A stretch of 64,000 nucleotides of DNA, from the NCBI RefSeq assembly GCF_042657385.1, contig NZ_JBHSLA010000001.1, positions 376,746 through 440,745 on the forward strand, read 5' to 3'. This document shows, one piece after another, positions 6,901 through 62,064 of this stretch. The position numbers and the translations under genes were made by a program. Below the pieces are notes generated by a model that did not search any database, was not told the origin of the DNA, and was given only the letters and a program-made list of their open reading frames with translations. The stretch comes from Bizionia hallyeonensis. Lineage in GTDB: Bacteria > Bacteroidota > Bacteroidia > Flavobacteriales > Flavobacteriaceae. Numbering within the stretch: position 1 is the stretch's first letter; the number at the start of each line of letters is the position of its first letter.

Positions 6901-7393
6901 CGGATTCCATATATTTTGGGTCGTAAGTTACATACGGATTGTCCATATCCACCCAGTAGCCCATTTTTTCAGTCAGATCGTTCCAAACGTCTGTATACCG
7001 CATAACCGCTTTACGGCAGGCTGCATTGTAATCTTCCACTGAAATAGTTTTACCAATATCTTCTTTGGTAATACCTAATTCCTTTTCAACACCCAACTCA
7101 ATAGGCAAACCATGTGTATCCCATCCAGCTTTACGTTTAACTTGATAGCCTTTCATGGTTTTATAACGTGGAAAAATATCTTTAATAGCACGCGCTAAAA
7201 CGTGATGTACACCTGGTAACCCGTTTGCTGAAGGTGGCCCTTCAAAAAACACAAATGGTTCCGCTCCTTCACGTGTGGTAACACTTTTTTCAAATACGTT
7301 ATGTTGCTTCCAATAATCAAGAATATTACTTGCTACTTGTGGCAAGTCAAGTCCTTTGTATTCAGGGAATTTATTACTCATAATTTCATTCAT
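3977..7393 (-). CDS. ileS: isoleucine--tRNA ligase (type 2, about 1138 aa)
   Basis: HIGH-region PPSANGLPGVHHVL, KMSKS motif KMSKRLGN and the CP1 editing-domain architecture. The length matches Bacteroidota IleS. Confidence 0.97.
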   Translation of the reverse strand: MNEIMSNKFPEYKGLDLPQVASNILDYWKQHNVFEKSVTTREGAEPFVFFEGPPSANGLPGVHHVLARAIKDIFPRYKTMKGYQVKRKAGWDTHGLPIELGVEKELGITKEDIGKTISVEDYNAACRKAVMRYTDVWNDLTEKMGYWVDMDNPYVTYDPKYMESVWWLLKEIYNKNLIYKGYTIQPYSPKAGTGLSSHELNQPGTYQDVTDTTVVAQFKANENSLPDFLKDEGDIYFLAWTTTPWTLPSNTALTVGPKIDYVLVETYNQYTFEPINVVLAKPLVNNQFDGKFKRVETKPELLDYKSGDKKIPYFVVKEFKGTDLVGITYEQLLPYALPNDNPENAFRIISGDFVTTEDGTGIVHTAPTFGADDALVAKQATPEIPPLLVKDENGNLVPLVNLQGKFRPEMGEYAGKYVKNEYYADGEAPERSIDVELAIKLKEENKAFKVEKYKHSYPNCWRTDKPILYYPLDSWFIKVTDVKDRMFELNETINWKPKSTGTGRFGNWLANANDWNLSRSRYWGIPLPIWRTEDGKEEICIGSVEELKAEMAKAVDAGVLAKAIFEDFEVGNNLDENYAKIDLHKNIVDKIVLVSPSGKPMNRESDLIDVWFDSGSMPYAQWHYPFENKEKIDNNESFPADFIAEGVDQTRGWFYTLHAIGTMVFDSVAYKNVVSNGLVLDKNGQKMSKRLGNAADPFETLSTYGADATRWYMIANANPWDNLKFDLEGIEEVKRKFFGTLYNTYSFFSLYTNLDKFTYEEAEIPLEERPELDRWILSELHTLIQKVDAFYAEYEPTRAARAISDFTQDYVSNWYVRLSRRRFWKGDYQTDKISAYQTLYTCMVTIAKLGAPIAPFFMDRLYMDLNAVTNKETFESVHLSNFPKFNERFVDKSLERKMEAAQTISSLVLSLRAKEKIKVRQPLQKIIIPVDNEQQKEEILAVANLIKHEVNIKEIEILEDASEILVKQIKPNFKTLGPRFGKDMKLIAKSIQQFDANHIKIIEQKGEIDVEINGKIITLERADVEITSQDIEGWLVANEGTLTVALDVTISEELRYEGIARELVNRIQNLRKDSGFEVTDRISVSIQKHDEILEAVSENLAYIKAETLTETLELKDKIEDGIEIAFDAITTRLSINKH

Positions 7394-40616: not shown

Positions 40617-40635
40617 AACCTTTTTTTAAAAGTAT

Positions 40636-40672
40636 AAAAGCGGTTGCGTTTAAAATTCAACCGCTTTTTTTA
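40636..40672. terminator. bidirectional terminator shared by the adhesin gene and the convergent TBDR gene
   Basis: AAGCGGTTG-cgtttaaaattc-CAACCGCTT followed by TTTTTT. The TBDR stop codon overlaps the T-tract. Confidence 0.7.
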
Positions 40673-43069
40673 TAGTGTATAGTGTAAAGACACCACAAAA
40701 TTTCTTCCAGGAGATGCAATTCCGGAGGAATAGGTTTTATACCGTTGATCCGTAATATTTTCCAATCCTGCTGTAACGGCAATACCGTCCTTAAATTGAT
40801 AATGCGTTCGGACATTCAAGGTGTACCACGAAGGTGAAAAAGGATTTCCATTGGAATCTTTGGCATATAAATAATCTTTAGCCTGTTCTGAAGGTGCTAA
40901 TTGTTGGTATGATAATTCGCCATTAAAGTTCACAAACCCATCAATTTTAAAACGTTGCTTTTGCCATACTACATGCGCATTACCAAAGCGTGGCGCAACA
41001 TGACGAATAGGAACTTCAATACGGTCGTCTTCTTCCGTACCTCCAATAATATTGTACTGTGATAAGAATTTAACCGATTTTGAAAAATTGATATTTAGTC
41101 CCACTTCAAAACCATAAATCCATGCTTTTGATGCATTTTGAATAGCTTGAACCGTACTCATTTCACCATCATATAAAATTTCAGATGCACCGTTTATGGT
41201 ATAATCTCTTCGAACTAAAGCATTATCTAGAAATGTGTAATACGTTGCTAAATCTAAAATTACCACATCACTAAAGTTTAAGAGTAAGCCCAATTCACCA
41301 CCATAAGCATATTCCGATTTCAAATTATTATTGGGCAGCACAACACTGCCTGGTTCAGAATCGAAAACCTTACCAATATCATCAACATTTGGCGCTCTAA
41401 AAGCGGTTGACGCATTCAATTTCCATTGTATCATGTTGCTAGGCATCCAGCTAATACCAGCTGTTCCCGTAAAGGCACCCGAATTAATTTCAGCTGTATT
41501 AAAAGGCAAGTTTAAATAGGCATTGTTTTCTGTGAAATCAGCTTTTGTTAAAACCTGATTATAGCGGATACCGGTTTGAAAAATAAGCTCGGAAGTCGGC
41601 TTGTATTTCAAACTCGTATAAGCAGCTAATGATTGCCAAGTAGCACCATCTGGATATCTAGAAACCGTTGGAATGCTAATTCCTGTGCTAATATCCTCTT
41701 CGTTACCACTAGAGTTTACCAAATTATACACATATTCGGCGCCATAAAAAAGGGCTGTTTTAGGGCTTAATTGTTTCTCCAAATCCAAGTTTGCCGAAAA
41801 AGCATTTACTTGCTCTTCCCTATTGTTTTTTATAACAGATTGAAAATCCCGATCATGACGACTTTCCTTAAAGTGTTGAAATGCAAATGTAGCTTGAGCT
41901 TTATCATATAACATAGATTTGCTATTGGACTGCGTAACTTGCAAATTACTCATAAACCATGCTTGCGGACCATAGTACCATTCGGCCGCTCTTAAGTTTC
42001 CATTTTTATATCGGATCAGTCTATCATAACGCGGATAATCTGACGTGGTAGAATAATAGGCTCCAAAATCTACAAGCAGGTCATCGTCAGCTTCAAACCG
42101 GACTTTTTGAATGGCATGAAATTGATTGAAACCAGTTGGTTTTTGAATTTTAGAATTTTCATTTATAATCACCTCATCTATACCGTTGACGGTTTGTACG
42201 TATTCCGGGCGTAAATAGTCTGTTGGGCCATGACTTCCCATTCGTAAATCGTCAAAATCACTATAACTAATACTGGTTAAAAACGCCCATTTTTTTAGTC
42301 CAAAATTAATATCTACATGACCTGTTTTTTCATTGTTGGCTGTTGCATATCGCGCTAAAGTATGACCTTTAATATAAATCTCATCTTTATAAGATAACTG
42401 TGGTTTTTTGGTATAGAAACCCATTACGCCTCCTATGGCATCACTACCATAAACTACAGAACCTGCTCCTAACGTAATTTCCGTGTTTTGAATACTTAAG
42501 GGATCTATAGAAATAACATTTTGAAGGTTTCCACCTCTAAAAATGGCATTATTCATCCGAACACCATCAACGGTAATTAAAAGTCTGTTAGTTGAAAATC
42601 CACGAATCATTGGGCTTCCACCTCCTAACTGACTTTTTTGAATATAGACATTTCCGGTTTCCTGCAGTAAATCAGCACTTGTTTGTGGGTTATCAAATTG
42701 GATTTCTTTAGCTGAAATATTGACAATCTTTTGAGGAATATCGCGTTTACTTTGCTCGAATTTTGAAGCTGAAATTACAACCTCATCTAGTCCAACACGA
42801 CCTTTTAATGTGATGACATTATTCTGAATTTGATTTTTGGGCAACTCTAAAAGATGGTAATTATCAGCTTGAAATTCTAGGATATCTTGACTAGAAAACG
42901 CATCCAAATGGGCCTCACCATTTAGATTTGTGATTACAGATTCAGTCGTATTTGAAATGATAACACCAGGAATTGGTAAGTTGGTATCTGTTTCTAAAAC
43001 TGTTATTTGCTGGGCTTGACTAAAAAACACGCAAAGCAAACACAAACTGAAAACAAATTGAACTTTCAT
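40670..43069 (-). CDS. TonB-dependent receptor with N-terminal CarbopepD_reg domain
   Basis: Signal peptide. ITVLETDTNLPIPGVIISN (CarbopepD_reg). Plug DEVVISASKFEQSKRDIPQKIVNISAKEI. 799 aa. Confidence 0.8.
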   Translation of the reverse strand: MKVQFVFSLCLLCVFFSQAQQITVLETDTNLPIPGVIISNTTESVITNLNGEAHLDAFSSQDILEFQADNYHLLELPKNQIQNNVITLKGRVGLDEVVISASKFEQSKRDIPQKIVNISAKEIQFDNPQTSADLLQETGNVYIQKSQLGGGSPMIRGFSTNRLLITVDGVRMNNAIFRGGNLQNVISIDPLSIQNTEITLGAGSVVYGSDAIGGVMGFYTKKPQLSYKDEIYIKGHTLARYATANNEKTGHVDINFGLKKWAFLTSISYSDFDDLRMGSHGPTDYLRPEYVQTVNGIDEVIINENSKIQKPTGFNQFHAIQKVRFEADDDLLVDFGAYYSTTSDYPRYDRLIRYKNGNLRAAEWYYGPQAWFMSNLQVTQSNSKSMLYDKAQATFAFQHFKESRHDRDFQSVIKNNREEQVNAFSANLDLEKQLSPKTALFYGAEYVYNLVNSSGNEEDISTGISIPTVSRYPDGATWQSLAAYTSLKYKPTSELIFQTGIRYNQVLTKADFTENNAYLNLPFNTAEINSGAFTGTAGISWMPSNMIQWKLNASTAFRAPNVDDIGKVFDSEPGSVVLPNNNLKSEYAYGGELGLLLNFSDVVILDLATYYTFLDNALVRRDYTINGASEILYDGEMSTVQAIQNASKAWIYGFEVGLNINFSKSVKFLSQYNIIGGTEEDDRIEVPIRHVAPRFGNAHVVWQKQRFKIDGFVNFNGELSYQQLAPSEQAKDYLYAKDSNGNPFSPSWYTLNVRTHYQFKDGIAVTAGLENITDQRYKTYSSGIASPGRNFVVSLHYTL

Positions 43070-56763: not shown

Positions 56764-58563
56764 CTATAAAACAGGAATTTCAATACTATTTATAGCCTGC
56801 TCATAAACCATAATATCAGCCTGAATTACAGTTGTATTTGGCTCCATCGTTTCCTTAAACAGCTTTTGATAATAGCCCACACCTTCTAATAAATTAGCTT
56901 TAAAGATTGTCCATTTTTTAATTTGCTTCGCGGATAAATCATCTGTAAACATGGCTATGTCATTCTTTAAATAATCCACATACATTTTCAGCTCTTTTAC
57001 AAACATATTCGGTCTGTAAGTATCCGATAAAACGGATGTTTTTCCATAAATATGCTTAACCATTTGTGCCAATGAAACCTCTTTATCGAAATAAGCTAAA
57101 TTGGGTCCCGGACAAATTACCACACCTTGCTGTTGCCCTTTTATAGGCATATCATTTTCCAGATAAGATGCATTGGCAAGACCAACACAAAGACAGGCTT
57201 TTTCAGTAATTTTGTTTTTTGTCATTTCAAAAACAGTAGCCGTCAACGTTTCTTTTTTCGCCTCCAATTCCTCCAATTTTACATCCTGATATTTTTTGGA
57301 TGCCGTACAAATACCTTCTGGCCCAAACTCTTTACTCAAGGCTAAAAACTTTTTAGGACAGGAACTTCCCGCTTTGTTGTTATCAATACGGGTTTGCTTA
57401 TAAAACTCGTTAGAGGTTCCCTTAATGGTATTAAAAGGCACGCCTAATGGCGAAATACCGCTTAAATACAAATCGGATTCTTTAGCTTCTGCCAATAACT
57501 TGCGTGTTTCGATGTCCACAGATGTAGCTTCTGGAACTAATAAAAATGGACTGCCCCAACCTACAGAATCTACCTGATAATTGTCAATTAAAAAATCGTG
57601 TTCCGCAGCCGTACCAACACCACCTTGAACGGTTATTTTTATATCTAATGGCTTTTCTGGGATATACAACGCTTTATCTGTTAATGCTTTTACAAAAACG
57701 TTATGTGTGTCTTGTATTAGTTCTGATTTTTTGCTTTTAAATTCTTCTAAAATGGGTCCCAACAAATGCCCGTCTGTAGCAAAGGCATGACCACCACAAT
57801 TTAAACCAGATTCAATTCGGTATTCAGACACCCAAAGACCCCTTTTAGCTAAAAATTTCCCCTGAATTATAGCAGAACGGAAATCGCTTACTTTTAAAAT
57901 AATTTTCTTTTTAATCTGATTTTTGGCATTGGGATAAAAATCGATGAAATTTTCAAAATAACTATACAATCTTGGGTTCATACCTGCCGAAAGCACCACA
58001 GACGAACTTAAATTACTATTAGCAAAACCGCGAAGTGATGCGTGTGCATCATTAAATTCTACTGGTAATTGTTCCGATTTAATAAAGTTTTCTTTATCAA
58101 TTTTGGTCATGATATTCACATCAATTTCACCAGCCGATAAATGAGAGTCTACATAGTTTTTAATGCTATCTTTAAGCATCAAACCTTCATCTAACAAATT
58201 TGAAAGTCCTTGTTTGATGTTGGACTTATTGGGAAGCATATCTATAAAATTCTCTAAAGCCGATTTACTTTCTGAAATTTCTTCTTTAAATTTTACAAAC
58301 TTATTTTTAACAATGGTATCAACCAAGTTTAAATATGCTGTAATACGTTTAGCACGATAATCGTCCACCTTTTTAGAAATTTCCTGATAAGGCAGACTAA
58401 ATTTTTCACTATAAAAAGCGTTCATACGTTCTAAAAGCTCATCGTCAATAATTGAAATTACAGACGAAATCCCGTATTGCGCCACACGAATAGGGCTATC
58501 TATGGTATAGGCTAAACCCATAACAGGAATATGGAAATTATGTGTGTGGTTGGATGCTCTCAT
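56764..58563 (-). CDS. uncharacterized 599-aa protein with a C-terminal (beta/alpha)8-barrel phosphate-binding-like motif (NMO/IMPDH/FabK class)
   Basis: QGGVGTAAEHDFLIDNYQVDSVGWGSPFLLVPEATS follows the GG(I/V)-x-T...V-x-x-G(S/T)-x-FL-x-x-E pattern of FMN/IMP TIM barrels. The N-terminal roughly 250 aa are unrecognised. Confidence 0.45.
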   Translation of the reverse strand: MRASNHTHNFHIPVMGLAYTIDSPIRVAQYGISSVISIIDDELLERMNAFYSEKFSLPYQEISKKVDDYRAKRITAYLNLVDTIVKNKFVKFKEEISESKSALENFIDMLPNKSNIKQGLSNLLDEGLMLKDSIKNYVDSHLSAGEIDVNIMTKIDKENFIKSEQLPVEFNDAHASLRGFANSNLSSSVVLSAGMNPRLYSYFENFIDFYPNAKNQIKKKIILKVSDFRSAIIQGKFLAKRGLWVSEYRIESGLNCGGHAFATDGHLLGPILEEFKSKKSELIQDTHNVFVKALTDKALYIPEKPLDIKITVQGGVGTAAEHDFLIDNYQVDSVGWGSPFLLVPEATSVDIETRKLLAEAKESDLYLSGISPLGVPFNTIKGTSNEFYKQTRIDNNKAGSSCPKKFLALSKEFGPEGICTASKKYQDVKLEELEAKKETLTATVFEMTKNKITEKACLCVGLANASYLENDMPIKGQQQGVVICPGPNLAYFDKEVSLAQMVKHIYGKTSVLSDTYRPNMFVKELKMYVDYLKNDIAMFTDDLSAKQIKKWTIFKANLLEGVGYYQKLFKETMEPNTTVIQADIMVYEQAINSIEIPVL

Positions 58564-58827
58564 GATGTGTATTTTAAAAAATAATTAAGCCGCAAAAGTG
58601 CTAAATGTAAACTTCCTAAAAGATGATAAATATCATACCTTTTAGTCTTTTATTATTTTAGATTAGAAAATTTTAAAAACAATTGTTGATATACGTCAAG
58701 CCTTTACCTTTCTGCATTTATCTTTTCAGAAGAAATATGTACACCAATAGGTTTTAATTATTACTTTTAAAAACTGTAACATGTACCTATCTATTTCATG
58801 TTCTGCAATCTGCCATAAAACCACCGC

Positions 58828-59320
58828 ATGACTACCTTCCCTGTTTCTGCCTCAACTCTCTCTGAAACCGCTTTAGGCAACTTCATAAAAGACACGTATC
58901 AACTAGCGGCAAATTTTAGCTGTAAGTTATACCGAACAGGTTTAAACCATACCTACTTTATTACAGATGGGCAAACCACTTATGTTATTCGGGTTTACTG
59001 CTATAACTGGCGAACAAAAACGGAAATTCAGGAAGAATTACGTTTATTAAACCAACTTAAAAACAACAACCTTTCGGTTTCATTTCCTATTGCTGACAAA
59101 AATGGGATCGTAATTCAAGACATTCAAGCACCAGAAGGACTGCGCCATGTGGTACTTTTTTCCTTTGCTAAAGGGGTGACAAAATTCGCGTTATGAAACC
59201 AGACACCTGTTTTGCTATTGGCGAAATTATGGCCAAAATTCATAATGAAACCGAAGGACAGAATTATGAACTGTACAGCCCAAACTTTGATTTTAAAAAT
59301 AGTGGGTAAGATTTTCGTTC
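58828..59320 (+). pseudogene. disrupted phosphotransferase-family (APH / homoserine-kinase type II-like) gene, with a -1 frameshift near 59172-59196 and a 3' truncation
   Basis: Frame 1 encodes an APH-like N-lobe (GLNHTYFITDGQTTYVIRVY...EIQEELRLLNQL...RHVVLFSFAKG) and stops at 59196. Frame 0 continues MKPDTCFAIGEIMAKIHNETEGQNYELYSPNFDF (APH brace region lG..lA.lH) and stops at 59320. The catalytic HGD/N and DxD regions are absent. Confidence 0.6.
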
Positions 59321-59403
59321 CGAAAATCCGCTAACAAAAACCCGCACTTTTCATTCACAAAACCGTTGGATTAAATTTAACAGTATCATTAAAAAGTAAA
59401 CCT

Positions 59404-59498
59404 AATTGTTTACTTTTTTTATTTATTGTAAACATATAAGATTACTTTTTTATATATTTGTAAATGCATATGTTTACAATTTTATTATTTTGTAAACT
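59404..59498. promoter_or_regulatory. nested inverted repeats (GTTTAC/GTAAAC half-sites) upstream of the HTH gene. Putative operator/promoter.
   Basis: aattGTTTAC (59404-13), ttgTAAACatat (59425-36), atatGTTTACaa (59468-79), ttGTAAACtt (59489-98). ATTGTAAACATAT and ATATGTTTACAAT form a 12-bp perfect inverted repeat. Confidence 0.35.
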
Positions 59499-59514
59499 TA
59501 AAGCTTTACAAAAA

Positions 59515-59976
59515 ATGAGAAATAAGCACAAACTTTTAATTGAGCAGTTAGACCAAAAGCTTCGTCCATTCGCTGAAACCCGAAAGATCATGGTTCCACA
59601 ACGCGGATGGATAAATACAATTAGAACATCTCTCAATATGACAATGGCACAACTTGGCGCCAAATTAAATATAACACGACAAGGTGTAAAAAGAATTGAA
59701 GAAAGTGAGGCTAATGGTTCCATAACGCTCAAATCTTTAAAAGATGTAGCCCATGCACTGGATTTAAAATTAATATATGCACTAGTGCCAATAAATGGGA
59801 CCATCAACGATTTAGTTGAAATAAAAGCAGAAAATCTGGCCAGAAAGATTGTATTAAGAACCAATCAAAATATGAAATTAGAAGACCAAGGAATTGGCGA
59901 TGAAAAACTAGCTAAAACAATAGAGGAACTGGCTAGTGAAATAAAACGCGAGATGAAAAAATCATTATGGGATTAG
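59515..59976 (+). CDS. XRE-family HTH protein of the 'mobile mystery protein A' type, partner of the downstream Fic protein. Start moved to MRNKHKL.
   Basis: HTH MTMAQLGAKLNITRQGVKRIE. About 153 aa. Overlaps the downstream Fic gene by 10 nt. The pairing with a short Fic protein is the A/B family signature. Confidence 0.65.
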   Translation: MRNKHKLLIEQLDQKLRPFAETRKIMVPQRGWINTIRTSLNMTMAQLGAKLNITRQGVKRIEESEANGSITLKSLKDVAHALDLKLIYALVPINGTINDLVEIKAENLARKIVLRTNQNMKLEDQGIGDEKLAKTIEELASEIKREMKKSLWD

Positions 59977-60563
59977 AATTTGATTATAAAGTAGGACAAA
60001 CACCTTTAGACGAAGTTGAAAAGGAGGGTCTTAAAATGAAGTCAATTACTACGCAAGGGGAACTGGATGAATTTGAGCAATTGAATATTGAAAAAGCTGT
60101 CGAATGGACCATTCATACAAAATTGAAACCTGAAAAAATTTTAACGGAAAAATTTGTAAAAGACTTACATAAAAAAATGTATGGCGATGTATGGAAATGG
60201 GCAGGTGAATTCAGAATGACTGAAAAAAACATTGGAATCCCTTGGACACAAATTGGAATTGAATTAAAAAATTTACTGGACGACACGAAATACTGGATAG
60301 AACACAAAACTTTTCCGCCTGAAGAAATAGCTATAAGATTTAAACATCGCATAGTATCCATTCATTGCTTTCCAAATGGAAATGGAAGGCACTCCCGAAT
60401 GATGGCTGACATTATTATGGAATCCATATTCGGGAATGACATATTTACTTGGCATCAATCAAATACGGTAAAAGCTAGCGAAACACGAAATAAGTATATA
60501 AAATCCTTGAGAGAAGCTGATAATGGTAATTTTACATCGTTAATTGAATTTGCAAAAAACTAA
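59967..60563 (+). CDS. Fic/Doc-family protein of the 'mobile mystery protein B' type (putative AMPylating toxin)
   Basis: Fic active-site motif HCFPNGNGRHSR (HxFx[D/E/N]GNGRxxR). 198 aa. Confidence 0.75.
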   Translation: MGLEFDYKVGQTPLDEVEKEGLKMKSITTQGELDEFEQLNIEKAVEWTIHTKLKPEKILTEKFVKDLHKKMYGDVWKWAGEFRMTEKNIGIPWTQIGIELKNLLDDTKYWIEHKTFPPEEIAIRFKHRIVSIHCFPNGNGRHSRMMADIIMESIFGNDIFTWHQSNTVKASETRNKYIKSLREADNGNFTSLIEFAKN

Positions 60564-60584
60564 AATTAGCTTAAACTGAAAAAG

Positions 60585-61244
60585 ATGCTGAACTACAACA
60601 AAATATTTCTGATTAGAGAATCTTATTCTAATCGTCCATTTAGAGGTGTTATTGAAAATTTTGATTTGGCCGAACCTAAAATTTCAAGAGGAGAAAAACA
60701 CATAACAGAAACGGTTACGGTAAAACATATAATGGGTGGACAAACCCTTTATGATATAATTTGGACAACCAATGCTTTTCCGCTAATAGTTAGCGAAAGA
60801 GTAATTAGGTTATTTAAATCAAATGGAATTACAGGTTGGAAAACATACAATGTTGAAATTCGCTCAAAAAAGAATGAATTGATTGACCAAAATTTTTTCG
60901 GACTTATTATAACTGGTCGCTGTGGCCATCGAGATTATTCTAAAAGCTCAATAGTATTAAGCAAAATTGGAGTGTACACCAAACCTCACATTAAAGGTTT
61001 TTATTTTAACGATGATTCTTGTGACGATTCTGATTTATTTATGAGTAACCCAGATGACGAAGGACATTCAACTATGCATCGTTTTTGCTCACAAAATGTT
61101 GTAAACCTATTTCAAAAAGAAAAAATAAAGAATATTAATTTTGAAAACCTAAATGAGTCAACATTGGCAATTGAATTACACCAAATACCCCTGACTGACA
61201 AACAAAAATCTGAAATGGAAAAATTAAAAACCAACGGTAAGTAA
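60585..61244 (+). CDS. hypothetical 219-aa protein, possibly an immunity-protein-like (DUF1629/Imm-type) fold
   Basis: 21 nt downstream of and co-oriented with the Fic gene. PLIVSERVIRLFKSNGITGWKTYNVEI and SDLFMSNPDDEGHSTMHRFCSQNVVNLFQKEKIKNINFENL resemble the v-S-E-x-l...G...f blocks of some polymorphic-toxin immunity families. This is from memory, not verified. Confidence 0.35.
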   Translation: MLNYNKIFLIRESYSNRPFRGVIENFDLAEPKISRGEKHITETVTVKHIMGGQTLYDIIWTTNAFPLIVSERVIRLFKSNGITGWKTYNVEIRSKKNELIDQNFFGLIITGRCGHRDYSKSSIVLSKIGVYTKPHIKGFYFNDDSCDDSDLFMSNPDDEGHSTMHRFCSQNVVNLFQKEKIKNINFENLNESTLAIELHQIPLTDKQKSEMEKLKTNGK

Positions 61245-61275
61245 TGAACAACTCCTATTTAAATCAAGTAAACGT

Positions 61276-61674
61276 TTATTCCAAAGAATATTCTGCAACC
61301 AATTTCACAAAATCCAAAGAACTAATCATGCCTACTATATTTCCTTCGTCCATTACAACCATGTGGTGTACGTCGTGCCTCAGCATCATTTTAGCGGCCG
61401 CATTAGCGCTTGAATTCATATGGACTACATGAACTCTAGATGATGTCATGACATCTTCCACAGTCGTGCTTTCTTGAACATCTTTATTCATATCCGTCGT
61501 GGTGACAATACCGCGTATAATCATCTCCGTATCTAATATGTCTTTGGAATAGGATATAATGGGAATAGCATTAATTCCTTTATCCTTCATTCGCGCTCTT
61601 ACCTCAATAACACTGTTTTCTCCTTTAGCTGTAATAACTGGTGCTGACATAAAATCTTTTACTTGTATTTTCAT
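61276..61674 (-). CDS. CBS-pair domain protein
   Basis: 132 aa with two CBS repeats (VKDFMSAPVITA... and VEDVMTSSRVHVVH...). Confidence 0.8.
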   Translation of the reverse strand: MKIQVKDFMSAPVITAKGENSVIEVRARMKDKGINAIPIISYSKDILDTEMIIRGIVTTTDMNKDVQESTTVEDVMTSSRVHVVHMNSSANAAAKMMLRHDVHHMVVMDEGNIVGMISSLDFVKLVAEYSLE

Positions 61675-61943
61675 AAACTCTTGGTTTAAATTTTATAATA
61701 CTAAAAGCAGAAATAACCATCCACTCGCCATAATTGTAAATATAAGATTATGTGAGCCTAATTCATATGATATTAATCATATTAAGTTGAATAGACAATG
61801 TAGAAAATAAAGAAGTAGCAACTAAAACACTTTTTAGCTTTTTCTGTTGTATGCTTCCACAGTTGATAAAATGAGATGTGAATTAAACAGGCGACGTTTT
61901 AAGCGTTTATCATTCAAATGTTCGACCTATGCTTGACCTACCT

Positions 61944-61978
61944 AAAAAACAAAAGCCTTTACATTTCTGTAAAGGCTT
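61944..61978 (-). terminator. rho-independent terminator of tRNA-Asn
   Basis: On the minus strand: AAGCCTTTACA-gaaa-TGTAAAGGCTT followed by TTGTTTTTT, 12 nt past the tRNA 3' end. Confidence 0.65.
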
Positions 61979-61990
61979 TGTCTAACTGTG

Positions 61991-62064
61991 CTCCTCCTCT
62001 TAGGCTCGAACTAAGGACCCTCTGATTAACAGTCAGATGCTCTAACCAACTGAGCTAAGGAGGA
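61991..62064 (-). tRNA. tRNA-Asn (anticodon GUU)
   Basis: Minus strand: TCCTCCT-TA-GCTC-AGTTGGTTA-GAGC-A-TCTGA-CTGTTAA-TCAGA-GGGTC-CTTAG-TTCGAGC-CTAAG-AGGAGGA-G. This gives a 7-bp acceptor stem, a canonical cloverleaf and the anticodon loop CT-GTT-AA. CCA is not encoded. Confidence 0.9.

What the first reader, a model, noticed from the sequence alone, without database searches (positions are those of the whole stretch)
58828..62064. Accessory cassette between a decayed kinase gene and tRNA-Asn: pseudogene + HTH/Fic pair + orphan Imm-like gene + CBS gene, with no integrase
This is the only stretch of the window that is not obviously core. An APH-family gene is frameshifted and loses its catalytic half at 59320. 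Immediately after it lie an AT-rich repeat-bearing region, an XRE-HTH/Fic pair of the 'mobile mystery protein A/B' type (so named because they recur on mobile elements), a co-oriented unknown gene 21 nt further on, and a convergent CBS gene. The tRNA-Asn 3' end abuts this block at 61991. tRNA 3' ends are classic integration sites, and the block lies on the 3' side of the tRNA. No integrase, transposase or direct repeat of the tRNA 3' end is visible. The cassette therefore looks like a decayed island or a recombined-in defence/toxin module. Taken together, HTH + Fic + Imm-like could be a three-component Fic toxin system that has not been described as such.
Basis: partly seen in the sequence, partly recalled or inferred. 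Interest (0 to 1): 0.8.

Follow-up and report, generated by a model that had tools for sequence, protein, structure and literature searches.

The report
Decayed cassette array with Fic module
This stretch is a decayed row of mobile gene cassettes: a broken kinase gene, a self-contained two-gene Fic enzyme/regulator pair and a stray immunity gene, which sit side by side through insertion and deletion and do not form a new three-part toxin system.

Summary
All the described features are present in this Bizionia hallyeonensis window.

**Variable interval.** The stretch between the tRNA-Asn terminator and a conserved 599-aa gene differs completely between sister species. Only B. algoritergicola shares this content. 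Relative to it, the window lacks 2,138 bp, which truncates the kinase gene.

**Three-component idea refuted.**
- In 80 metagenome loci with close mystB relatives, mystA lies upstream in 79. The Imm11-like gene lies downstream in 0 of 55.
- The Imm11-like family occurs without Fic in 7 of 7 other contexts.

**What the two units are.** In other Flavobacteriaceae both are separate integron-type gene cassettes with attC-like hairpin sites. The structure is 84.5% paired and has 12 covarying pairs. A covariance model finds 94 sites, all on the gene strand.

**State in the window.** The window keeps the mystAB 5' boundary (GTTGGAT) and the promoter leader with four 32-nt-spaced palindromes. The attC between mystB and the Imm11-like gene is lost, which fused the two cassettes. 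No attC in the window is functional.

**Most likely roles.** MystAB is most likely an autoregulated Fic toxin-antitoxin-like pair. The 219-aa gene is an orphan immunity gene; its only significant PDB fold match is MXAN_0049.

The parts
58828..59263 (+). 5' part of an APH-family kinase pseudogene. It carries a +2 nt frameshift at 59173-59176 and is cut off by a deletion.
   Evidence: Pfam APH and NCBIfam thrB_alt give N-terminal hits only. The orthologous frame in L001 covers APH profile positions 11-239 of 239 (E 2e-15), but it carries one in-frame TAA itself. DNA alignment.
59263..59264 (.). Junction of a 2,138-bp deletion relative to B. algoritergicola (L001 9299..7162), with 1 nt of microhomology. 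The deletion removed the kinase 3' half, a 314-aa aspartyl-protease gene and most of a 180-aa membrane-protein gene.
   Evidence: blastn and MAFFT against L001. ORFs of L001. Asp_protease_2 at E 6e-13.
59264..59309 (+). Last 14 codons plus stop of the 180-aa membrane-protein gene, left behind by the deletion.
   Evidence: Matches the L001 C-terminus ...YELYSPNFDLKNSG*.
59310..59371 (+). Decayed attC-like site. Only the 3' half is recognisable. It ends in the core GTTGGAT (59365-59371), which marks the 5' boundary of the mystAB cassette.
   Evidence: The covariance-model hit at 59277-59371 is only E 0.58, and the stretch does not fold (z -0.4 to -1.0). The GTTGG core nevertheless lies 143 nt before the mystA ATG. 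Intact attC sites end 134-172 nt before it in about 31 other loci.
59396..59509 (+). mystAB leader. It holds four GTAAAC-N6-GTTTAC palindromes at 32-nt spacing. They overlap a Bacteroidetes-type -7 box (TATATTTG, 59453-59460), which I identified from my own knowledge of the TAnnTTTG consensus. These are the putative operators and promoter.
   Evidence: Palindrome type matches the HTH recognition-helix variant in 64 of 64 loci.
59515..59976 (+). mystA. It has an XRE helix-turn-helix plus a C-terminal helical part with the motif NMKLEDQ (residues 119-125). It is the putative repressor and antitoxin.
   Evidence: TIGR02612 E 2e-43 and HTH_3 E 2e-6. The family motif is [T/S/N]-M-x-L-E-[D/N/A/G]-Q, with E in 122 of 131 representatives.
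59967..60563 (+). mystB, a Fic-fold enzyme with active-site motif HCFPNGNGRHSR. Its gene overlaps mystA by 10 nt.
   Evidence: TIGR02613 E 6e-75, Fic E 2e-10, PADLOC PDC-S04 E 2e-18. Family alignment.
60564..60584 (+). Fusion junction. It holds a degenerate core ATTAGCT (60565-60571; GTTACCT elsewhere) and the conserved leader of the Imm11-like cassette. The roughly 130-nt attC of mystAB is missing.
   Evidence: Seven other contexts share ...GTTACCTGCAAGCTGAAAAA-ATG, with unrelated sequence upstream of the GTT. An attC starts 0-8 nt after the mystB stop in 33 other loci.
60585..61244 (+). Orphan Imm11/Imm43-superfamily immunity-protein gene (219 aa).
   Evidence: Of 42 family members, 36 hit Imm11 and 20 hit Imm43. 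The AF2 model (pLDDT 79) has a single significant PDB match, 6a4c MXAN_0049, at E 8e-9. No toxin gene lies adjacent.
61243..61280 (+). 38-nt remnant of the attC of the Imm11-like cassette (AATGAACAAC...AAACGTTTATT). It is not functional.
   Evidence: Covariance model E 0.71; no fold. Intact attC sites start at the stop codon in L087, L093 and L085.
61276..61674 (-). Stand-alone CBS-pair protein gene, convergent with the cassettes. It is accessory and its origin is unresolved.
   Evidence: Pfam CBS E 9e-19. It is present at this locus only in L001.
61990..62064 (-). tRNA-Asn (GTT). Its terminator hairpin lies at about 61953-61981. It is a conserved flank and not part of the accessory block.
   Evidence: ARAGORN. 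Conservation of the tRNA and about 90 nt downstream in L001-L004, L017, L018 and L020.

Best explanation
The block is the fossil of an integron-type cassette array. It sits in a hypervariable interval between the tRNA-Asn terminator and a conserved 599-aa gene. It holds independent accessory units that are neighbours by history, not by function.

1. **Kinase pseudogene.** It was truncated by a 2.1-kb deletion.
2. **mystAB cassette.** This is an autonomous two-gene module of about 1.2 kb with its own promoter.
   - MystA most likely represses the operon by binding four palindromes through its XRE domain.
   - MystA most likely holds the Fic enzyme MystB inactive through a conserved C-terminal glutamate helix. 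This would be class-I-type Fic inhibition.
   - If MystA is lost, MystB would modify a cellular target and stop growth. That would stabilise the array or abort phage infection.
3. **Orphan Imm11-like immunity cassette.** It probably protects against a nuclease-type toxin delivered by competitors. It became fused to mystAB when the attC hairpin between them was deleted.
4. **CBS gene.** Its origin is unknown.

Shown: the anatomy, the cassette nature of both units elsewhere, the lack of co-occurrence, and the deletion history.
Inferred: toxicity, inhibition by the glutamate, operator binding, and the immunity function.
For: **Variable interval.** RseP-tRNA-Asn-[variable]-p599 is conserved. The content of the variable part is unrelated in L002, L003, L004, L017 and L018.

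**Deletion and frameshift.**

**mystAB is a two-gene unit.**
- mystA lies upstream in 79 of 80 loci, and no third gene recurs.
- Four plasmid contexts show only the A+B pair, out of 269 plasmid records with mystB.
- Homology to the window ends within 2 nt of the mystB stop codon (60561-60567) in 76 of 80 loci; three alignments run on to 60585.

**attC-like sites.**
- In the 20-site alignment, 84.5% of cells are paired, against 25-32% when the partners are slid.
- 12 pairs show compensatory change. The covariation score is 0.322 against 0.106 in shuffles, reached by 0 of 500 shuffles.
- The covariance model finds 94 sites at E<=0.01, all on the gene strand, in arrays with 0.5-1.4 kb spacing.
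- They fold as single-stranded DNA hairpins (z -2.5 to -5.5).

**Cassette logic.**
- mystAB has 5' core GTTGGC(T/A) and 3' AGCCAAC.
- The Imm11-like cassette has 5' GTTACCT and 3' AGGTAAC, which overlaps its stop codon.
- In both, homology to other contexts breaks upstream of GTT.

**Same interval in relatives.** L004 carries a strong attC in the equivalent interval (E 2e-15).

**Regulation.** The four palindromes are unique to the leader. Recognition helix ITRQGVKRIE goes with the GTAAAC type in 32 of 32 loci. LTKGAIQKIE goes with the ATAC..GTAT type in 32 of 32 loci.

**Inhibitory motif.**

**Immunity.**. MXAN_0049 is the immunity protein of the T6SS nuclease toxin MXAN_0050 (PMC6627406). 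In Aquimarina the family sits in an attC-separated array with SUKH-4, SMI1/SUKH and Imm33 genes.

**Literature.** Xre-Fic pairs were predicted as toxin-antitoxin systems in 2009 (PMC2701414). TIGR02613 is listed under Fic/Doc TA (PMC8649781).
Against: - No attC in the window reaches significance (best E 0.57-0.71 in 3.8 kb), and none folds. The cassette origin of the window copy therefore rests on boundary homology.
- There is no integron integrase in the window. The recombinase next to flavobacterial arrays scores below the IntI cut-off (200 against 265 bits) and lacks the IntI-specific insertion.
- The kinase, protease, membrane-protein and CBS genes were not shown to be cassettes.
- The mystA motif in this genome (NMKLED) departs from the canonical (S/T)xxxE(G/N) at both ends.
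- MystB has N where canonical AMPylating Fic enzymes have D/E, so its chemistry may differ.
- Nobody has shown toxicity for this family. One test of a PDC-S04 candidate found no phage defence (bioRxiv 10.1101/2024.12.20.629700).
- The helix/palindrome association could simply reflect two clades inheriting gene and promoter together.
Confidence: 0.7

Rival explanations
1. HTH + Fic + Imm-like form one three-component Fic toxin system. The Imm-like protein would be a second antidote or a sensor.
For: In the window and in L001 the three genes are co-oriented. Only 21 nt and no terminator separate mystB from the Imm11-like ORF, so they are probably co-transcribed here.
Against: - None of 55 close mystB loci with enough downstream sequence has the gene.
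- None of 7 other contexts of the 219-aa family has mystA or mystB.
- Each unit has its own cassette boundaries and its own attC elsewhere.
- The 21-nt spacer is the Imm11 cassette leader plus a degenerate core site, that is, a deletion scar.
Confidence: 0.03
2. The block is the remnant of a genomic island that integrated into the tRNA-Asn 3' end through a tyrosine integrase and later lost its integrase and att sites.
For: The block lies on the 3' side of tRNA-Asn. B. arctica (L020) carries a partial duplicate of the tRNA-Asn 3' end, so such elements exist in the genus.
Against: - The window has no duplicate of the tRNA 3' end.
- About 90 nt after the tRNA are conserved across species, and in L020 the partial tRNA copy lies upstream of that conserved stretch. 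tRNA-targeted elements therefore insert on the other side of it.
- There is no integrase remnant.
- The internal unit boundaries are attC-type.
Confidence: 0.1
3. MystAB is primarily an anti-phage abortive-infection or defence module of the SoFic / PDC-S04 type, rather than an addiction module.
For: - MystB hits PADLOC PDC-S04 (E 2e-18) and SoFic (E 2e-11).
- SoFic AMPylates EF-Tu (bioRxiv 10.64898/2026.07.09.737422).
- From my own knowledge, not checked here: integron cassettes have recently been shown to carry defence systems.
- MystB is absent from phage genomes.
Against: PDC-S04 is an unverified candidate, and one native-host test found no defence. The PADLOC models are for single genes, whereas mystB is always paired with mystA. 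This reading is compatible with the best explanation rather than opposed to it.
Confidence: 0.3
4. MystAB is a non-toxic regulator-enzyme pair. MystB would reversibly modify a host protein, and MystA would be only its transcription factor.
For: - The Fic motif has N instead of the metal-binding D/E.
- MystB is very conserved (80-91% identity in 80 loci).
- Some Fic enzymes switch between AMPylation and deAMPylation (papers listed).
Against: - The unit is promiscuous on plasmids and in cassette arrays with unrelated flanks.
- The genes overlap with the small HTH gene first.
- MystA carries a conserved C-terminal LE-Q motif outside its DNA-binding domain.
- All three features are typical of toxin-antitoxin modules.
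Confidence: 0.15

Closest known systems
Class I Fic toxin-antitoxin pairs (VbhT/VbhA, FicT/FicA)
   Same: - A separate small upstream gene overlaps a Fic-fold enzyme gene.
- The partner has a conserved helix motif with an invariant glutamate: [S/T]MxLE[D/N]Q compared with (S/T)xxxE(G/N).
- They are carried on plasmids and mobile DNA.
   Different: - MystA is 153 aa and has an N-terminal XRE DNA-binding domain.
- The residue after the Glu is mostly D, not G/N.
- The Fic motif has N instead of D/E.
- No structure, target or toxicity is known. Only remote PDB sequence hits were found (FICD, E 5e-5).
Toxin-antitoxin cassettes of sedentary chromosomal integrons, such as the Vibrio superintegron (from my own knowledge)
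   Same: - It is a two-gene cassette with its own promoter inside an array of otherwise promoterless cassettes.
- attC follows directly after the stop codon.
- Such cassettes are thought to stabilise arrays.
   Different: - The host is Flavobacteriaceae, the attC class is lineage-specific, and the adjacent recombinase is not a canonical IntI.
- In the window the attC sites have decayed, so the cassette is immobile.
CALIN (cluster of attC sites lacking an integron integrase), a degraded integron
   Same: - Co-oriented small accessory genes with no integrase.
- Relatives have genuine attC arrays in the same interval (L004).
   Different: The window has no attC site that passes any threshold. It is one step further decayed than a CALIN.
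MXAN_0049, the immunity protein of the Myxococcus T6SS nuclease toxin MXAN_0050 (PDB 6a4c); Pfam Imm11/Imm43
   Same: - It is the only significant fold match (E 8e-9, TM 0.57).
- Most family members hit Imm11 and Imm43.
- The family occurs in arrays of orphan immunity genes.
   Different: - Sequence identity is 14%.
- The window protein is 0.6 bit below the Pfam gathering score.
- No cognate toxin is adjacent in any context examined.
SoFic / PADLOC PDC-S04 Fic defence candidates
   Same: Fic core similarity (E 2e-18 and 2e-11).
   Different: Those are single-gene systems with an internal inhibitory helix. MystB is always paired with MystA.

Membership tests
Mobile mystery protein A/B (TIGR02612 / TIGR02613) | Whole-protein score above the curated NCBIfam cut-offs | tested here: met
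   147.7 against 122.6 bits, and 251.1 against 124.4 bits.
Mobile mystery protein A/B (TIGR02612 / TIGR02613) | A and B encoded as an adjacent pair, with A first | tested here: met
   The window has a 10-nt overlap. The same holds in 79 of 80 metagenome loci and 4 of 4 plasmids inspected.
Fic family (AMPylating type) | Active-site motif HxFx(D/E)GNGRxxR | tested here: not met
   The motif is HCFPNGNGRHSR. H, F, GNGR and R are present, but D/E is replaced by N, which is invariant in 6 of 6 diverse family members. The Pfam Fic domain itself is met (E 2e-10).
Class I Fic toxin-antitoxin | Inhibitory motif (S/T)xxxE(G/N) on a separate partner protein | tested here: inconclusive
   Across 131 representatives the first position is T/S in 91, the Glu is present in 122, and the last position is D in 56, N in 20, A in 14 and G in 10. 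The window has NMKLED.
Type II toxin-antitoxin system | The toxin arrests growth and the antitoxin neutralises it | not testable with these tools
No report was found in the library.
Type II toxin-antitoxin system | Autoregulated bicistronic operon with operator repeats | tested here: inconclusive
   Four palindromes overlap the putative promoter. The palindrome type tracks the recognition helix in 64 of 64 loci. Binding was not shown.
Integron gene cassette | An attC site (R''...AAC, L boxes with bulges, variable loop, GTT...R') directly 3' of the ORF | tested here: not met
   In the window the best hits are E 0.57-0.71 and do not fold. For the same two gene units elsewhere the feature is met: 33 loci for mystAB, and L087, L093 and L085 for the Imm11-like gene.
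Integron gene cassette | The 5' boundary lies at a GTT core that is complementary to the cassette's own 3' R'' box | tested here: met
   The window has GTTGGAT at 59365-59371. Elsewhere GTTGGC(T/A) pairs with AGCCAAC, and for the Imm11-like cassette GTTACCT pairs with AGGTAAC.
Integron (complete) | An integron integrase (IntI, with its specific insertion) next to the array | tested here: not met
   There is none in the window. In the Olleya, Tenacibaculum and L154 arrays a Xer/IntI-like recombinase lies upstream in the same orientation. It scores 200 bits on TIGR02249 against a cut-off of 265, the match skips profile positions 178-242, and the gene is frameshifted or truncated.
Pfam Imm11 immunity protein | Score at or above the gathering score | tested here: not met
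   21.5 against 22.1 bits for the window protein. 36 of 42 homologues match at E<=0.01, with a best E of 3.6e-6. The fold matches MXAN_0049.
Polymorphic-toxin immunity gene | A cognate toxin gene immediately upstream | tested here: not met
   No toxin domain was found next to it in the window or in 7 other contexts. It is therefore an orphan.
tRNA-integrated genomic island | An integrase plus a direct repeat of the tRNA 3' end at the distal border | tested here: not met
APH / homoserine-kinase-II-like kinase | Complete kinase fold with the HxDxxxxN and DFD motifs | tested here: not met
   The window keeps only the N-lobe. The L001 frame has both motifs but also an in-frame stop.

The most novel reading that the evidence does not exclude
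Marine Flavobacteriaceae may carry a widespread integron-like cassette system that has not been described.

Its features would be:
- a lineage-specific attC class (R'' AGCCAAC / R' GTTGGCT, 52-180 nt);
- arrays co-oriented with an upstream Xer/IntI-like recombinase that lacks the IntI-specific insertion and is often frameshifted or truncated;
- cassettes that include orphan immunity genes;
- mystAB as the resident stabilising module. MystAB would be a new variant of class I Fic toxin-antitoxin, in which the inhibitory-glutamate helix is fused to an XRE repressor.

The window would then be a fossil of such an array.
Probability: 0.35. Interest if true: 0.7.

Novelty: new member of a known kind. 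Interest (0 to 1): 0.4.

Why it matters
**For this genome.** The result replaces an attractive but wrong idea, a new three-part toxin system, with a concrete history. Separate cassettes were fused and immobilised by deletions.

**Beyond the window.** Two leads are testable.

1. The 'mobile mystery' proteins have carried that name in databases for years without a described function, as far as I know. They now have a specific mechanistic hypothesis: an autorepressor whose C-terminal glutamate helix gates a Fic enzyme with an unusual N-type motif.
2. The attC-like arrays in Flavobacteriaceae suggest that integron-type gene capture is common in this phylum. The IntegronFinder 2.0 survey reported almost none there: previously only integrases without cassettes, plus one complete integron in Salinibacter (PMC9024848). 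If correct, this bears on how marine Bacteroidota trade immunity and defence genes.

Tried and rejected
- **The 17-nt direct repeat flanking the block (58698 and 61953) as an att site.** Rejected. It is half of the tRNA terminator hairpin, the left copy is not conserved in L001, and similar hairpins terminate other genes.
- **A duplicate of the tRNA-Asn 3' end.** None in the window.
- **Rfam.** No family matches the attC-like sites.
- **A complex model of MystA+MystB.** The afdb50 fold library was unavailable.
- **PDB sequence searches.** They gave only remote Fic hits for MystB and nothing useful for MystA or the 219-aa protein.
- **IntI1-like hits near p599 in Winogradskyella.** These turned out to be an ordinary integrative-element integrase.
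- **The 180-aa membrane protein as a conserved third partner of mystAB.** It is present upstream in L154 only, 1 of 76 loci.
- **Phage carriage of mystB.** None found.
- **Two protein look-ups (P0004, P0010).** They returned no contig.
- **Literature.** Searches for the family name found only annotations in passing. Searches for integrons in Flavobacteriaceae found nothing specific.

Full report
**Identity of the window and check of the observation**

The 219-aa protein is 100% identical to a Bizionia hallyeonensis protein. The neighbouring 599-aa gene (p599) is 95% identical to that of B. algoritergicola APA-1, which is locus L001.
- an APH-family N-terminal fragment at 58828-59196;
- mobile mystery protein A (TIGR02612, 147.7 bits, cut-off 122.6);
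- mobile mystery protein B (TIGR02613, 251.1 bits, cut-off 124.4; Pfam Fic E 2e-10);
- a 219-aa ORF starting 21 nt after mystB, with a sub-threshold Imm11 hit;
- a convergent CBS-pair gene;
- tRNA-Asn at 61990-62064 on the minus strand.

No integrase, transposase or tRNA 3'-end repeat is present.

**Comparison with relatives**

The order RseP - tRNA-Asn - [interval] - p599 - nadD is conserved in Bizionia and Xanthomarina. The interval itself is completely different in B. echini, B. myxarmorum, a related MAG that carries an IS3 element there, and Xanthomarina. In one Xanthomarina species it is only 1.2 kb long.

Conservation resumes about 100 nt upstream of the p599 start, near window position 58665. 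It also resumes about 90 nt downstream of the tRNA, near 61900, a stretch that includes the tRNA terminator.

Only B. algoritergicola shares the window's content, and it has 2,138 bp more. That extra DNA holds the rest of the kinase gene, a 314-aa aspartyl-protease gene and a 180-aa membrane-protein gene.

In the window the deletion junction is 59263/59264. Positions 59264-59309 are the tail of the membrane-protein gene, not of the kinase. The kinase also carries a +2 nt frameshift at 59173-59176. In B. algoritergicola the kinase frame is complete (APH profile 11-239 of 239) but contains one in-frame TAA. The gene is therefore decaying in both genomes.

**Test of the three-component hypothesis**

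The 219-aa family is small (42 clusters) and, among the named homologues, is found only in Flavobacteriaceae genera. In seven contexts outside Bizionia it never lies near mystA or mystB. These contexts are Tenacibaculum, Aquimarina, two Maribacter-like genomes, Marixanthomonas and two metagenome contigs.

In the other direction, 80 metagenome loci encode MystB relatives of 80-91% identity:
- 79 have mystA directly upstream; the exception has too little sequence upstream to tell;
- none of the 55 loci with at least 700 nt downstream has the Imm11-like gene;
- no other gene recurs, the commonest neighbour appearing in 6 of 80 loci.

On plasmids, mystB occurs in 269 records. The four I inspected (Sphingopyxis, Vibrio, Coxiella QpH1 and an Agrobacterium Ti plasmid) show just the overlapping A+B pair. 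The three-gene system is therefore refuted.

**What the Imm-like gene is**

Of the 42 family members, 36 hit Pfam Imm11 and 20 hit Imm43. An AlphaFold2 model (mean pLDDT 79) has one significant match among solved structures: 6a4c, MXAN_0049 (E 8e-9, TM 0.57). MXAN_0049 is the immunity protein of the T6SS-delivered nuclease toxin MXAN_0050 of Myxococcus (PMC6627406).

In Aquimarina the gene lies in a row with SUKH-4, SMI1/SUKH and Imm33-like genes. No toxin gene is adjacent anywhere. It is best read as an orphan immunity gene.

**How the units move**

Homology between the window and the 80 mystB loci ends within 2 nt of the mystB stop codon (60561-60567) in 76 of them; three alignments run on to 60585. 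It begins 80-170 nt upstream of mystA.

Directly after the stop codon, most loci carry an imperfect palindrome with this layout: AGCCAAC - 3 nt - stem with bulges - variable loop - stem - 5-6 nt - GTTGGCT. Its length is 52-180 nt.

The evidence that this is a structured element:
- On an alignment of 20 such sites, 84.5% of cells form pairs, against 25-32% when the partners are slid.
- 12 of 20 pairs show compensatory changes.
- The AAC and GTT triplets are nearly invariant (A-U 20/20, A-U 19/20 plus one G-U, C-G 20/20).
- The covariation score is 0.322 against 0.106 in shuffles, reached by 0 of 500 shuffles.
- The sites fold as single-stranded DNA hairpins with z-scores of -2.5 to -5.5.
- No Rfam family matches them.

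This is the architecture of integron attC sites, a comparison I make from my own knowledge of R and L boxes, extrahelical bases and the variable terminal structure.

A covariance model built from these sites finds 94 more at E<=0.01 in the 80 loci. All lie on the gene strand, in arrays spaced 0.5-1.4 kb apart. In 33 loci a site starts 0-8 nt after the mystB stop. In about 31 loci a site ends 134-172 nt before the mystA ATG.

The same model finds sites directly after the stop codon of the Imm11-like gene in L087, L093 and L085, and between the immunity genes of the Aquimarina array.

Both units obey cassette logic. The 5' boundary is a GTT core complementary to the cassette's own 3' box:
- for mystAB, GTTGGC(T/A) pairs with AGCCAAC;
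- for the Imm11-like gene, GTTACCT pairs with AGGTAAC, and the latter overlaps the stop codon.

Sequence upstream of the GTT is unrelated between contexts.

**State of the window**

The window has GTTGGAT at 59365-59371, 143 nt before the mystA ATG, where the cassette boundary is expected. Just before it lies the recognisable 3' half of an attC. The site as a whole scores only E 0.58 and does not fold.

The 21-nt spacer between mystB and the Imm11-like ORF consists of a degenerate core (ATTAGCT, where other contexts have GTTACCT) and the conserved Imm11 cassette leader. The whole attC of mystAB has been lost, which fused the two cassettes.

After the Imm11-like stop, only a 38-nt remnant remains (E 0.71, no fold). 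The window therefore contains no functional attC and no recombinase. It is one step more decayed than a CALIN.

A strong attC (E 2e-15) lies in the equivalent interval of the related MAG L004. Further sites lie near p599 in Mangrovimonas and B. saleffrena.

**The recombinase**

In Olleya sp. Bg11-27, Tenacibaculum tangerinum and metagenome locus L154, a tyrosine-recombinase gene lies upstream of the arrays in the same orientation.
- The Olleya gene is split by one frameshift in a poly-A run.
- Reconstructed, it scores 200 bits on the integron-integrase model (cut-off 265) and 208 bits on the XerA/integron-integrase model (cut-off 220).
- The match skips the profile segment that holds the IntI-specific insertion.
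- The Tenacibaculum copy is a mutated C-terminal stub.
- The best 120 database relatives of the C-terminus are all 175 aa or shorter.

Membership in integrons in the strict sense is therefore not established. 'Integron-like' is the defensible term.

**Likely mechanism of mystAB**

MystA starts at 59515 and is 153 aa long. It has an XRE helix-turn-helix and a C-terminal part with a family-wide motif, [T/S/N]-M-x-L-E-[D/N/A/G]-Q. The Glu is present in 122 of 131 representatives at 50% clustering. This resembles the Fic inhibitory motif (S/T)xxxE(G/N), which class I antitoxins supply on a separate protein (PMC3667792, listed).

MystB has the motif H-[P/C]-[F/Y]-[P/V]-N-G-N-G-R-x-x-R. An invariant Asn replaces the metal-binding Asp/Glu. 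I found no internal inhibitory motif by eye.

The leader carries four GTAAAC-N6-GTTTAC palindromes at an exact 32-nt period. They are the only four matches in 64 kb, and they overlap a TAnnTTTG box.

Across 64 loci the palindrome type tracks the recognition helix perfectly:
- ITRQGVKRIE goes with the GTAAAC type in 32 of 32 loci;
- LTKGAIQKIE goes with the ATAC-N-TATA-N-GTAT type in 32 of 32 loci.

These may be just two clades, so the association is not independent proof.

I infer an autorepressed toxin-antitoxin-like pair that stabilises cassette arrays, acts in abortive infection, or both. Toxicity, target and binding are all untested. PADLOC's related PDC-S04 candidate showed no defence in one study.

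**Comparison with what is known, and novelty**

Xre-Fic pairs were predicted as toxin-antitoxin systems in 2009. TIGR02613 is filed under Fic/Doc TA among the Tn7 cargo genes surveyed. The family is named but, in the searchable literature, uncharacterised.

The window's genes are therefore new members of known kinds.

The less expected result lies outside the window: abundant attC-like arrays in Flavobacteriaceae. The IntegronFinder 2.0 survey reported only In0 elements and a single complete integron, in Salinibacter, for Bacteroidetes. I found no paper describing such arrays. I cannot exclude that metagenomic cassette surveys have already seen them.

Noticed in passing
L094-L175 (for example L173 25-6940, L097 745-5548, L174 12893-19877, L053 15032-20456): Marine Flavobacteriaceae carry arrays of attC-like hairpin sites, all on the gene strand. 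They separate small, diverse ORFs such as immunity genes, acetyltransferases and PIN proteins. No Rfam family matches them. The literature I could search reports almost no integrons in Bacteroidetes.
   Followed up: partly
L174 9343-10525; L175 10001-10363; L154 3-299; remnants at L145 3-107 and L142 2341-2430: A Xer/IntI-like tyrosine recombinase sits upstream of these arrays in the same orientation. In Olleya it is frameshifted in a poly-A run, and in Tenacibaculum it is truncated and mutated. It lacks the IntI-specific insertion. All 120 best database relatives of its C-terminus are 175 aa or shorter, which suggests systematic disruption or a recoding site.
   Followed up: partly
L001 12273-17508 (B. 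algoritergicola): About 5.2 kb is inserted between nadD and the 599-aa gene, together with a second copy of the nadD 3' end. It looks like an element that integrated into the end of nadD.
   Followed up: no
L020 ~95-150 (B. arctica): There is a partial copy of the tRNA-Asn 3' end followed by the conserved terminator. This is an att-type remnant showing that tRNA-Asn is an integration site in the genus. The element itself lies outside the fetched locus.
   Followed up: no
window 56764-58563 (-): A 599-aa protein with no significant Pfam or NCBIfam match (only weak hits far below the cut-offs) is 54-95% identical in 80 Flavobacteriaceae genomes. attC arrays or variable DNA often lie within 10 kb of it.
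   Followed up: no
L001 ~7002-7031 compared with window 59420-59495: B. algoritergicola lacks 66 nt of the mystAB leader. The deletion lies between operator repeats and removes the putative -7 box, so its copy may be silent or read through from upstream.
   Followed up: partly
L154 2736-3263 and L001 7115-7657: Homologous membrane proteins of about 180 aa (32% identity, E 1e-22) lie directly upstream of mystAB in both loci. This is not seen in the other 75 loci. It may be a two-cassette block that moved together.
   Followed up: yes
window 59396-59509: The four palindromes are spaced exactly 32 nt apart, about three helical turns. All bound repressors would then sit on one face of the DNA.
   Followed up: partly
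window 40632-40742 (-): A weak match to the attC model (E 3). Probably chance.
   Followed up: no
L076 6837-18112 (B. saleffrena): Five attC-like sites on one strand lie on both sides of the 599-aa gene homologue, which suggests a larger array around it in that species.
   Followed up: no
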